Positions 19,494 to 21,941 of a DNA stretch of 64,000 bases are shown here, one piece after another. Location: assembly GCA_963703905.1 (NCBI GenBank), contig CAVPFY010000007.1, forward strand, positions 14,374-78,373, in the 5' to 3' direction. The notes below the pieces were generated by a model. That model searched no databases. It had not been told where the DNA came from and was given only the letters and a program-made list of their open reading frames with translations. Each line of letters opens with the position of its first letter. The stretch's first letter is position 1. The stretch is from an uncultured Chloroflexia bacterium (GTDB lineage: Bacteria; Chloroflexota; Dehalococcoidia; DSTF01; WHTK01). Position numbers and translations under genes: made by a program.

Positions 19494-21941
19494 ATGAGCA
19501 CGGCCGGCGGACCGCTGGCGGGTTTTCGCGTCCTCGACTTCACCGACGAGCTCGGCGTTTACGCGACGAAGGTCCTTGCGGACCTCGGCGCCGACGTCGT
19601 CCGCCTCGAGCCGCCTCGGGGCGACCCAATGCGGTCGTACCCGCCCTTCGCGCCGGACGGCAAGACCAGCCTCTATTACGGTCACTTCAACCTCGGCAAA
19701 CGGGCTCTGGCGCTCGACTGGACGGCCGCCACCGGGCTCGACGCGCTGGCTGCCCTGGTCCGAAGCAGCAACGCCCTTATCGAGTCGGCGGCGCCGGACC
19801 GCCTGCTCAGCGCCGCCATCGGCATCGAGCGCCTGCGCGAGTGGCGGCCCGACCTGGCCCTGGTCTCGATCACGCCCTTCGGCCGGACCGGCCCCTACCG
19901 CGATTACAGAGGCGGCGACCTGGTGCTGTCGGCCCAGAGCGGGCTCGCCTTCCTCCGCGCCGACCCGGCCTCCCCGCCGATGCGGCCGGGCGGCGAGCAG
20001 ACCACACATATGGCATCACAGCTGGCCGTGAACGCCGCCCTGATGGGCATTTACGAGCAGCAGACCAGCGGCCGCGGCAGCTACGTCGAGGTTGCCGCCA
20101 ACTTCGCGACTTGCCTGGCGACGCTGCAGAGCGGCAACGCCAACTACTGCACCTGGTTCGGCGAAGCGCCAATCCGCCGCAGCAGCGTTTACCAGGTCTG
20201 GGAGGTCGCCGACGGCTGGACGACGTATACGAACTCGCCGCGGGGTTTCGCCAACCTCCTGGGCCTGCTGCAGGAGCACGGCGCCGAAGACGACCTCGCC
20301 GCGCCTGAATACGCTGACCTCGAGTACCGCCAGGCGCGCGCCGAGCACGTGAACGAGGTCGTCGCGCGCTTCTTCAAGACGCAGGGCAAGCAGCAGCTTT
20401 TCGAGAAGGCGCAACGGCGAGGCCTGCGCTACATGCCCGTGAACAGCGTCGCTGATATCGCCCGCGACCCCTTTCTCGTGAACCGCGGCTTCTTCCGCGA
20501 GGTCGACTGGCCGGCGCTCGGCGGCAGGGTCACCTTTCCCGGCGCGCCCTTCCGCTTCGGCGGCCGAGACCTCTGTCACACCACGCCGCCTCCAGGGCCC
20601 GGCGAGCACACGGCGGAGGTCCTCGAGTCACTTCGCGAGAAGCCGGCCGGTCCCATTTCGGCTGTAGGCGCCCCTCACGAGCGGCGCGCCGTGCCCACGG
20701 CAGGTCTCTCCAGCGAGCCGGCAAACGCACCCTGGCTGCCCCTCAAGGGCATCCGCGTCCTCGACTTCTCCTGGCTCATCGCCGGCCCCCTCGGCACGCG
20801 CCTGCTGGCGAACTTCGGCGCCGAAGTCCTGAAGGTCGAGTCTTACAACCGCGTCGATGGCATCCGCCTCACCGGCCCGCATCCGAAGACGGATGGCCCC
20901 GTCAACGTCAACGCCGACGGCTCCTTCAACGACGTGAACCTGGGCAAGAAGAGCCTCCTCCTGAACCTCAACGTCCCCGAGGCGCGCGAGATCGCGCTGC
21001 GCCTCTGCGCCGTCTCCGACATCGTCGCGGCGAACTTCACGGCCGACAGGCTGGACCGCTGGGGCCTGGGTTTCGACGACCTGCGCCGGGTCAAGAAGGA
21101 CCTCGTCTTCCTCTCCATGCCGGTGTTCGCGAAGGGCGAGCGCGTGGACTGGGGCGGCGTCGGCAGCGACATTTCCGCGCTCTCGGGCATCAACGCCATC
21201 TCGGGCGTCGAAGGCACGCCGCCGATCGGGCTCGGCCTGCACTACCCCGACTTCAGCTCCAACCCCTTCCACGCCCAGGCCGCGATCCTGGCGGCGCTGA
21301 TCAACCGCGAGCGCTTCGGCGAAGCGCAGCTGATCGAGGTCAGCCAGTACGAGTCGACCGTATCGATCCTGGGGCCGGCGTTGTTGAACTACTTCGTCAA
21401 CGGCACGGAGCCACCGCGCCTCGGCAACCGCTCTCAGCGCCATGGCCCCCACAACATCTATCGCTGCGGCGGCGCCGACAAATGGTGCGCGATCTCCGTC
21501 TCCATGGAGGACGAATGGCAAGCTCTATGCCGGGCGCTGAATCGGCCCCAGTGGATCTCGGACGCTCGCTTCGCGGACTTCGCCGCCCGTAAACGCAACG
21601 AGGACGCCCTGGACGCCCTCATCGGCGAGGCCGTTGCCGGCGAGGCGCCATCGGCCCTGGCCGCGCGCCTCCAGGGCGCCGGCGTCGCCGCCGCGCCGGT
21701 CAACAACGTCGCCAACCTGCTCGCCGACCCCTGGTACCGCGACGAATACTTCACGGTCATGGACGGCCCCGACGGCTACGAGTTCACCGCGCATGGCGAA
21801 CCGCTGCGGCCTTTCGGGCGCAAGCATCCCGTGCGCCGGGCGCCGTTCATGGGCGAGCACACCGAAGAGGTCCTGCGCGGCATCCTGGGCCTGGACGACG
21901 GGGAGATGGACGCGCTCTACGTTTGCGGCGCGCTGGGCTGA
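19494..21941 (+). CDS. Two-unit (tandem-fused) family III CoA-transferase
   Basis: Uninterrupted 815-aa ORF. Unit 1 starts [37 protein letters not shown]. Unit 2 starts [34 protein letters not shown] and ends ...[31 protein letters not shown]. Confidence 0.8.
   Translation: [815 protein letters not shown]

What the first reader, a model, noticed from the sequence alone, without database searches (positions are those of the whole stretch)
19494..21941. Single-chain tandem fusion of two different family III CoA-transferase units, with a split, translationally coupled paralogue pair nearby
19494..21941 is one uninterrupted 815-aa ORF with two complete CaiB/BaiF-type units. Unit 1 starts [37 protein letters not shown]. 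Unit 2 starts [34 protein letters not shown], near residue 415. The same two unit types occur as adjacent genes 12919..14134 (MAGTRALDLIDGLGAYGPRLLVGLGVEVIRVEPPGG) and 11687..12922 (LEGIRIIDCGWIIAGPLTSRLLADLGAEVIKIES), whose stop and GTG start overlap (GTGA at 12919-12922). Characterised family III enzymes are interlocked dimers, either homodimers such as Frc/CaiB or two-subunit enzymes such as BbsEF. A covalent head-to-tail fusion would be a single-chain pseudo-heterodimer, which poses a folding and topology question and hints at asymmetric active sites.
Basis: partly seen in the sequence, partly recalled or inferred. Interest (0 to 1): 0.65.

Follow-up and report, generated by a model that had tools for sequence, protein, structure and literature searches.

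The report
Two-domain family III CoA-transferase gene
The 815-residue gene is a real fusion of two different family III CoA-transferase units with only one catalytic site, but this "two-domain" architecture is already described and widespread, so it is an uncharacterised member of a known kind.

Summary
The ORF 19494..21941 (+) is real, uninterrupted and 815 aa long, with two full CoA_transf_3 units (residues 5-380 and 413-814) joined by a disordered, poorly conserved linker of about 32 residues.

- **Unit types.** Unit 1 resembles chain A of benzylsuccinate CoA-transferase BbsEF, which lacks the catalytic Asp. Unit 2 resembles chain B.
- **Catalytic residue.** Unit 2 Asp586 aligns with the BbsEF D178 that carries the CoA adduct. 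It is invariant in 116 of 116 fused homologues. The unit 1 position is Thr171, and it is not Asp in about 95% of about 258 fused proteins.
- **Structure.** AlphaFold gives one compact body (pLDDT 94, pTM 0.95). The "pseudo-heterodimer with asymmetric sites" reading therefore holds.
- **Novelty.** It is not new. Dong et al. [quoted passage not shown] They count 2,401 two-domain sequences with the Asp in the C-terminal domain, and name DddD and PtmU4 as characterised members. My searches find hundreds of fused clusters across phyla.
- **Split pair.** The nearby pair has the right unit types and a GTGA overlap, but as read it carries at least 6 frame switches.
- **Second fused gene.** Another two-domain gene (43974..46262, -) is also frame-broken.
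- **Likely role.** CoA activation of an imported (di)carboxylic acid. This is inferred from neighbouring genes, not shown.

The parts
19494..21941 (+). Two-domain family III (type III) CoA-transferase gene, 815 aa plus stop
   Evidence: It is an uninterrupted ORF with two PF02515 stretches. More than 100 full-length homologues of 780-850 aa exist. The AF2 model has pLDDT 94.4 and pTM 0.95.
19506..20633 (+). Unit 1 (residues 5-380): non-catalytic BbsEF-chain-A-like unit. Thr171 (20004-20006) sits at the catalytic-Asp position, and a 'TDELGVY' loop replaces the canonical 'AGP' loop.
   Evidence: It matches 9fn0_A at E 6e-51, and 9fn0_A has Tyr at that column. In the fused homologues the column is Y, H, A, F, W or S, and is not Asp in about 95% of them. 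Foldseek TMt is 0.83-0.84 to 9fn0_A. The codon was checked.
20634..20729 (+). Inter-unit linker (residues 381-412), disordered and poorly conserved
   Evidence: Block-mean pLDDT is 57-68 over residues 381-410, and residues 385-391 fall below 50. Length and sequence vary among the closest homologues.
20730..21935 (+). Unit 2 (residues 413-814): catalytic unit with Asp586 (codon GAC, 21249-21251) in the motif HYPDFSS
   Evidence: It matches 9fn0_B at E 4e-65, and D586 aligns with D178 of that chain. PDB entry 9fol is titled 'D178-CoA adduct'. D586 is invariant in 116 of 116 homologues. Foldseek TMt is 0.94-0.95. The codon was checked.
17505..19391 (+). SBP_bac_5 solute-binding lipoprotein directly upstream, with a twin-arginine motif and an LAGC lipobox
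   Evidence: Pfam E 2.3e-45. The N-terminus was read. The gene sits in the same position in the related loci L002 and L003.
16248..17474 (+). Acyl-CoA dehydrogenase, same strand, upstream of the SBP gene. Its best named relative is the pimeloyl-CoA dehydrogenase large subunit.
   Evidence: It has three ACAD Pfam domains. NCBIfam pimC_large scores 279 bits, below the 624-bit cut-off. The gene is syntenic in L002 and L003.
12919..14134 (-). Split gene A (unit-1 type, Ser at the Asp column), frame-shifted as read near 13075
   Evidence: It is 67% identical to the intact 400-aa orthologue in L003.
11687..12922 (-). Split gene B (unit-2 type, Asp present in QYPDFSA). Its GTG start overlaps the TGA stop of gene A. 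It has five frame switches as read.
   Evidence: The stitched sequence is 80% identical to the intact 408-aa orthologue in L003.
14249..16174 (-). SBP_bac_5 lipoprotein upstream of the split pair
   Evidence: Pfam E 5.9e-51. The N-terminus was read.
10810..11664 (-). Enoyl-CoA hydratase downstream of the split pair
   Evidence: Pfam ECH_1 E 3.7e-34. The gene is syntenic in L003.
9905..10687 (-). IclR-type regulator at the end of the split-pair cluster
   Evidence: Pfam HTH_IclR. The gene is syntenic in L003.
43974..46262 (-). Second two-domain CoA-transferase gene of a different lineage, disrupted by at least 3 frame switches as read
   Evidence: It is colinear with residues 1-766 of the 779-aa fused protein of L002, at 57-86% identity per segment. 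The frames run -2, -3, -1, -2.

Best explanation
The gene encodes a member of the already recognised two-domain subfamily of family III (type III) CoA-transferases.

The two units are not equivalent duplicates. They are the covalently joined counterparts of the two subunit types of BbsEF-like two-subunit enzymes. The N-terminal unit has lost the catalytic aspartate and acts as the structural partner. The C-terminal unit carries the nucleophile Asp586. The chain most likely folds into an intramolecular pseudo-heterodimer with a single working active site.

The expected mechanism is the standard family III one. Asp586 attacks the donor acyl-CoA, forms an acyl-aspartyl anhydride and then an aspartyl-CoA thioester, and CoA is passed on to the acceptor acid.

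Shown here: the architecture, the unit homologies, the Asp asymmetry and its conservation, and a confident single-body model.

Inferred: the substrate is an imported (di)carboxylic acid. It would be taken up through the adjacent family-5 solute-binding lipoprotein, activated with succinyl-CoA or a similar donor, and then oxidised by the adjacent PimC-like acyl-CoA dehydrogenase. The fusion probably arose from an overlapping A-B gene pair like the one 5 kb away.
For: - **Architecture.** Two PF02515 stretches are present.
- **Unit homology.** Unit 1 matches 9fn0_A at 6e-51 and unit 2 matches 9fn0_B at 4e-65. At profile level the values are 4e-118 and 2.5e-146.
- **Catalytic Asp.** D586 aligns with BbsEF D178, the residue that carries the CoA adduct in 9fol. 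D586 is invariant in 116 of 116 homologues, and the unit 1 column is never Asp in that set.
- **Pattern across the family.** About 240 of about 258 fused proteins show "no Asp, then Asp".
- **Model.** AF2 gives pLDDT 94.4 and pTM 0.95, with only the linker disordered. Foldseek TMt is 0.95 for unit 2 and 0.83 for unit 1 against BbsEF chains.
- **Authenticity of the fusion.** The closest relatives at 66-72% identity are also fused. The top 150 clusters at 50% identity are almost all 770-890 aa.
[quoted passage not shown] It counts 2,401 sequences.
- **Gene neighbourhood.** ACAD, SBP and the fused gene lie in the same order in the window, L002 and L003. ECH, ACAD, a MaoC-like hydratase or a full SBP/ABC transporter lie next to distant fused homologues.
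- **Dicarboxylate hints.** The ACAD is nearest to PimC. Unit 2 is nearest to succinate-glutarate and succinyl-CoA:mesaconate transferases, although all scores are below the curated cut-offs.
Against: - No biochemical data exist for this clade. Every NCBIfam equivalog score is far below its cut-off, so the substrate is unknown.
- The two characterised two-domain enzymes do non-standard chemistry. DddD is a transferase/lyase and PtmU4 does sulfur transfer.
- I could not inspect the model coordinates, so the interlocked arrangement is inferred from pTM and homology only.
- Family-5 solute-binding proteins classically bind peptides, not organic acids.
- No ABC permease or ATPase genes lie next to this SBP gene.
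Confidence: 0.8

Rival explanations
1. The fusion is an assembly or sequencing artefact: two adjacent genes were joined by an indel that removed the stop codon.
For: The window carries many frame-disrupted genes. The split pair has at least 6 frame switches. The second fused gene has at least 3. The FDH-like and XDH-like clusters are also broken. The related contig L003 is error-prone as well.
Against: Independent contigs carry the same fusion at 66-72% identity with alignable ends. Hundreds of more distant fused clusters exist. The linker reads in frame for about 32 residues, and the fused architecture is described in the literature.
Confidence: 0.02
2. The protein is not a plain CoA-transferase. 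Like the characterised two-domain members, it may perform an added or different reaction on the acyl-CoA, such as DddD-type transferase/lyase chemistry or PtmU4-type sulfur transfer to form a thioacid.
For: According to PMC6006322, the only two-domain members characterised are DddD and PtmU4, and both are non-canonical.
Against: No PtmA3-like acyl-CoA synthetase lies within two genes, which is the hallmark of 160 of 175 thioacid cassettes. No DMSP-related neighbours are present. The units are closest to BbsEF, a bona fide transferase. The neighbouring genes are of beta-oxidation type.
Confidence: 0.1
3. Both units are catalytically active, with unit 1 using another acidic residue such as Glu168 as its nucleophile.
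For: Unit 1 has Glu168 three residues before the Asp column. That column is Asp or Glu in 51 of 116 homologues. About 8 of 258 fused proteins have Asp in both units.
Against: Column 168 is Pro, Phe, Ala, Gly or His in many homologues, so it is not conserved. The BbsEF chain-A type also lacks the Asp. Unit 1 replaces the canonical 'AGP' loop.
Confidence: 0.05
4. Unit 1 is a decaying duplicate with no role, and the gene is on its way to becoming a single-unit enzyme or a pseudogene.
For: Unit 1 lacks the catalytic Asp. It is also less conserved than unit 2: 62-65% against 73-79% identity to the closest orthologues.
Against: Unit 1 keeps the full fold at pLDDT above 90. It has about 29 invariant or nearly invariant positions across 114 sequences from several phyla. 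Family III enzymes need two units to build each active site. That last point is established structural knowledge of Frc, CaiB and BbsEF, and was not tested here.
Confidence: 0.03

Closest known systems
[quoted passage not shown] 2007 and Dong et al. 2018 (PMC6006322), with characterised members DddD and PtmU4
   Same: The architecture is the same. Two tandem family III units sit on one chain, joined by a poorly conserved linker, with the conserved catalytic Asp in the C-terminal unit only.
   Different: The gene neighbourhood differs. There is no PtmA3-type ligase and no DMSP genes; the neighbours are a solute-binding lipoprotein and an acyl-CoA dehydrogenase instead. I could not measure the sequence relationship to DddD or PtmU4 because I had no reference sequences. 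The substrate is unknown.
Succinyl-CoA:(R)-benzylsuccinate CoA-transferase BbsEF (PDB 9fn0, 9fol, 9fun)
   Same: These are the best sequence and structure matches for both units. Unit 1 corresponds to chain A, which has no Asp. Unit 2 corresponds to chain B, which has the D178 that forms the CoA adduct. TMt is 0.83 and 0.95.
   Different: BbsEF consists of two separate polypeptides, whereas here they are fused. Identity is only about 33%. No bss or bbs pathway genes such as a thiolase or the BbsCD dehydrogenase are present. It is therefore not a BbsEF orthologue.
Homodimeric family III enzymes (Frc, YfdW, CaiB, YfdE, SUGCT)
   Same: The fold is the same (PF02515), and unit 2 carries the same Asp nucleophile motif.
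   Different: Those enzymes have two identical active sites per dimer. This protein has one site per chain and a specialised non-catalytic partner unit.

Membership tests
Family III CoA-transferase (Pfam PF02515) | Sequence match to CoA_transf_3 above the gathering score | tested here: met
   The score is 514.8 bits against a cut-off of 23.3, in two stretches. Unit 2 covers profile positions 1-366.
Family III CoA-transferase (Pfam PF02515) | Family III fold of a large domain plus a small domain | tested here: met
   The AF2 model has pLDDT 94.4. Foldseek TMt is 0.94-0.95 for unit 2 and 0.83-0.84 for unit 1 against BbsEF, and 0.8-0.9 against Frc, YfdE and SUGCT.
Family III CoA-transferase (Pfam PF02515) | Catalytic Asp nucleophile (Frc D169, BbsEF D178) | tested here: met
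   It is met in unit 2: D586 aligns with D178 and is invariant. It is not met in unit 1, which has Thr171 there.
Family III CoA-transferase (Pfam PF02515) | Interlocked two-unit assembly | tested here: inconclusive
   A pTM of 0.95 for the whole chain indicates a confident fixed arrangement of the two units.
[quoted passage not shown] | Two tandem family III domains on one polypeptide | tested here: met
   (residues 5-380 and 413-814).
[quoted passage not shown] | Poorly conserved inter-domain linker | tested here: met
   The linker has low pLDDT over residues 381-410. Its length and sequence vary among close homologues.
[quoted passage not shown] | Conserved catalytic Asp in the C-terminal domain | tested here: met
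   D586 is present in 116 of 116 homologues. The "no Asp, then Asp" pattern holds in about 240 of 258 fused proteins. PMC6006322 states the same feature.
PtmU4-type thioacid cassette | A PtmA3-like acyl-CoA synthetase within 2 genes or fewer | tested here: not met
   The neighbours are an ACAD and an SBP upstream, and a GT2 and a DUF2142 protein downstream. The criterion comes from PMC6006322.
DddD (DMSP CoA-transferase/lyase) | Orthology to DddD and a DMSP-catabolic gene context | not tested
No DMSP-related genes were seen among the annotated neighbours. The literature places DddD as an outgroup to the other two-domain proteins.
BbsEF benzylsuccinate CoA-transferase | Two separate subunits encoded in a bbs beta-oxidation operon next to bss genes | tested here: not met
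   The protein is fused and only about 33% identical. No thiolase, BbsCD or glycyl-radical genes appear in the window.

The most novel reading that the evidence does not exclude
This clade of two-domain enzymes may be a covalently fused BbsE-BbsF-type transferase. It recurs in modules with Tat-exported family-5 solute-binding lipoproteins, PimC-like dehydrogenases and hydratases. Such modules could form a previously uncharacterised set of uptake-and-activation pathways for unusual (di)carboxylic acids in an uncultured high-GC lineage. The retained but Asp-less site of unit 1 could act as a second ligand or regulatory site. A first experimental structure would show how an interlocked family III dimer folds as a single chain.
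Probability: 0.3. Interest if true: 0.4.

Novelty: new member of a known kind. Interest (0 to 1): 0.22.

Why it matters
- **Annotation.** It shows that proteins labelled "CaiB/BaiF CoA transferase" of about 800 aa are fused BbsE/BbsF-type pairs with a single catalytic Asp, not duplicated enzymes with two sites.
- **Open structural question.** None of the 35 family III sequences in the PDB copy is longer than 456 aa. No two-domain member has therefore been solved, and how the interlocked dimer folds as one chain is still open. This protein models with very high confidence and would be a reasonable target.
- **Limits.** The architecture, the C-terminal Asp and the size of the subfamily are already in the literature. 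Beyond the two points above, the finding is ordinary.

Tried and rejected
- **Organism identification.** A genome-contig scan with the protein returned one distant 29% hit in a Clostridiaceae MAG and no organism for the window. Cluster look-ups of the closest homologues carried no names. Rfam and tRNA scans of the window found nothing. The taxon stays unknown. High GC, Tat plus lipobox SBPs and F420/LLM genes suggest a monoderm-like Actinomycetota or Chloroflexota lineage, but that is only a guess.
- **Literature.** Searches for the BbsEF structure paper ('9FN0', 'BbsEF', 'heterotetramer') found no primary paper. A search for 'Rv1866', a two-domain mycobacterial protein I recalled from memory, found nothing.
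- **Model coordinates.** They are not exposed in /data, so I could not check threading or measure the distance from D586 to unit 1 residues.
- **Possible hidden frameshift in the fused ORF.** I rejected this. The ORF aligns end to end with P0002, P0003 and P0004 without garbled stretches.
- **Origin of the split-pair indels.** The switch points are not in long G or C runs. One lies in a GCGCGCGC repeat. The cause is undecided.
- **Transcription signals.** The promoter and terminator scan around the gene was uninformative.
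Full report
**1. Checking the observation**

The ORF 19494..21941 (+) is listed as 815 aa and translates without an internal stop. Pfam reports two CoA_transf_3 stretches with a whole-protein E-value of 1.8e-154. A unit HMM places them at residues 5-380 and 413-814.

The neighbouring "split pair" is only partly as described.
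- The unit types are right.
- The GTG of gene B does overlap the TGA of gene A: CCTGTGAGCC on the minus strand at 12919-12922.
- Gene A as given spans 1216 nt, which is not a multiple of 3. Its last 49 residues are in another frame.
- Gene B contains an in-frame stop and changes frame five times relative to its intact orthologue.
- In the related contig L003 the same two genes are intact (400 and 408 aa) and overlap by 4 nt.

**2. What the two units are**

Against solved structures the two halves hit different chains of one enzyme, benzylsuccinate CoA-transferase BbsEF.
- Unit 1 matches 9fn0_A at E 6e-51, against 5e-21 for chain B.
- Unit 2 matches 9fn0_B at E 4e-65, against 2e-19 for chain A.
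- A profile of 114 fused homologues gives the same split at 4e-118 and 2.5e-146.

Counting along the HMMER alignment, Asp586 of the query (HYPDFSS, codon GAC at 21249-21251) aligns with D178 of chain B. PDB entry 9fol is titled "D178-CoA adduct". At the equivalent column unit 1 has Thr171, and BbsEF chain A has Tyr.

Unit 1 also carries TDELGVY where unit 2 and classical members have the xAGP loop (consensus).

The split genes repeat this pattern. Gene A has Ser at the Asp column, and gene B has QYPDFSA.

Pairwise identities among the four units are as follows.

| Pair | Identity |
|---|---|
| Unit 1 vs split gene A | 32-33% |
| Unit 2 vs split gene B | 44% |
| Unit 1 vs unit 2 | 25% |

The units are therefore old paralogues of two distinct types, in the same order in the fused and the split versions.

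**3. Is the fusion real, and how common is it?**

The closest relatives are fused as well and align end to end. They are P0002 (800 aa), P0003 (801 aa), the fragment P0004 and P0005 (790 aa), at 66-72% identity. Only the linker varies.
- 116 of the 120 best hits in the word-indexed search are 730-870 aa.
- Nearly all of the top 150 clusters at 50% identity in the exhaustive search are 770-890 aa.
- Where hits carry names, they come from Chloroflexota, Dehalococcoidia, Opitutaceae, Methylomirabilia and Pseudomonadales.

Across 116 fused homologues D586 is invariant, and the unit 1 column is Y, H, A, F, W, S or N. Across about 258 fused proteins, about 240 show the pattern "no Asp, then Asp". 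Eight have Asp in both units, and two are reversed, with Asp first and then Y or W.

An artefactual fusion is therefore excluded. The asymmetry is the conserved state of the family.

**4. Structure**

AlphaFold2 with the 114-sequence alignment gives mean pLDDT 94.4 and pTM 0.95. Apart from the first three residues, only residues 385-391 fall below pLDDT 50, and the linker blocks over 381-410 average 57-68. Foldseek places unit 2 on BbsEF chains B and D (TMt 0.94-0.95, rmsd about 2 Å). It places unit 1 on chains A and C (TMt 0.83-0.84).

The high pTM for the whole chain indicates a fixed arrangement of the two units, consistent with an intramolecular BbsEF-like pseudo-heterodimer. I could not inspect the coordinates. 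The interlocking itself is therefore inferred.

All 35 PDB sequences that match the family profile are 359-456 aa long. No two-domain member has a solved structure in that copy.

**5. What is already known**

Dong et al. 2018 (PMC6006322, section "PtmU4 catalyzing sulfur transfer") make the following points.
[quoted passage not shown] 2007.
- DddD was the only characterised two-domain member before their work. They then show PtmU4 to be another.
- A 2017 database search found 2,401 two-domain sequences.

[quoted passage not shown] The architecture, the position of the Asp and the abundance of the subfamily are thus all published.

I did not find in the searchable library an explicit statement that the two domains correspond to the non-catalytic and catalytic subunit types of BbsEF. 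The BbsEF structures were released only in December 2025, and I could not find their paper.

**6. Genomic context and likely role**

The order ACAD (16248-17474), SBP_bac_5 lipoprotein (17505-19391), fused gene is kept in L002 and L003. The split-pair cluster, IclR-ECH-B-A-SBP, is kept in L003. Distant fused homologues sit next to the following genes.
- Enoyl-CoA hydratases.
- Acyl-CoA dehydrogenases.
- A MaoC-like hydratase.
- A complete SBP/ABC transporter.
- Further single-unit CoA-transferase pairs.

The ACAD's best named relative is the pimeloyl-CoA dehydrogenase large subunit, at 279 bits against a 624-bit cut-off. Unit 2's best named relatives are succinate-glutarate and succinyl-CoA:mesaconate CoA-transferases, also far below their cut-offs.

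There is no PtmA3-type ligase within two genes, so this is not a thioacid cassette (criterion).

My best inference is CoA activation of an imported (di)carboxylic acid, followed by beta-oxidation-type steps. I put this at about 50% confidence. The substrate is unknown.

**7. Sequence quality of the window**

Besides the split pair, several other loci are frame-broken as read.
- A second two-domain gene (43974-46262) has frames -2, -3, -1, -2 against the 779-aa fused protein of L002.
- An FDH/NuoEF-like cluster is broken.
- An XDH-like cluster is broken.

The fused gene, both adjacent SBP genes, the ACAD, the ECH and the IclR gene are intact. The related contig L003 also shows garbled stretches. 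I cannot decide between long-read indel errors and real pseudogenes without reads.

**8. Verdict**

The fused ORF is exactly as described, but the split pair is frame-disrupted.

The protein is a pseudo-heterodimer with asymmetric sites, but it is neither novel nor composed of two catalytically complete units.

[quoted passage not shown] Interest is low to moderate.

Noticed in passing
window 43974..46262 (-), with SBP_bac_5 at 41915..43954 (-): A second two-domain CoA-transferase gene. It is colinear with residues 1-766 of the 779-aa fused protein in L002 (57-86% identity per segment) but switches frame at least 3 times as read. It belongs to a different lineage: its unit 1 keeps the canonical AGP loop but lacks the Asp, and its unit 2 has AVNDYGTG.
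   Followed up: partly
window 11687..14134 (-): At least 6 frame switches are concentrated in 2.4 kb of the split pair. The roughly 9 kb of flanking genes (ECH, both SBPs, ACAD, fused gene) have none. The switch points are not in long homopolymers, and one lies in a GCGCGCGC repeat. Whether this is a real pseudogene pair or local assembly error is undecided.
   Followed up: partly
window 4058..5035, 14249..16174, 17505..19391, 41915..43954, 56222..57904, 60587..62290: The window is unusually dense in family-5 solute-binding protein genes, and holds 7 CoA_transf_3 units in 64 kb. Four of the six SBP genes listed lie beside or within about 1.2 kb of a CoA-transferase gene rather than a full ABC transporter. 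The two I read have a twin-arginine motif and a lipobox (LAGC, LVGC).
   Followed up: partly
window 6197..7078 (-) and 5559..6200 (-): A single-unit family III CoA-transferase that matches only profile positions 95-365, so it is N-terminally truncated as read. It has the catalytic Asp (ALSDYST). A TetR-type regulator lies next to it.
   Followed up: no
window 27781..32621 (+) and 33569..36235 (+): Two clusters appear fragmented by frameshifts, with partial domain matches across adjacent or overlapping ORFs. One is a formate-dehydrogenase/NuoE-NuoF-like cluster. The other is a xanthine-dehydrogenase/CODH-like cluster with FAD_binding_5, Fer2_2 and MoCoBD_1 domains.
   Followed up: no
proteins P0178 and P0257; P0148, P0109, P0235, P0097, P0214, P0263, P0264: Among fused homologues a few have the reverse order: Asp in unit 1, and Tyr or Trp in unit 2. 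About eight have Asp in both units. This suggests more than one fusion event, or fully two-site variants.
   Followed up: no
window 37685..40618 (+): A 977-aa ORF with only a weak Big_7 (bacterial Ig) match. Its function is unknown.
   Followed up: no
L002 591..4025 (+): In the related contig, a 1144-aa protein fuses biotin carboxylase, a biotinyl domain and a carboxyltransferase, making a single-chain acyl-CoA carboxylase. It lies next to the CoA-transferase modules.
   Followed up: no
window 21634..27393: Downstream of the fused gene lies an unrelated cluster of envelope type: a GT2 glycosyltransferase, a DUF2142 membrane protein, a methyltransferase-like ORF and a second GT2. The listed 21634 start of the first GT2 ORF overlaps the fused gene by about 300 nt and is probably too far upstream.
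   Followed up: no
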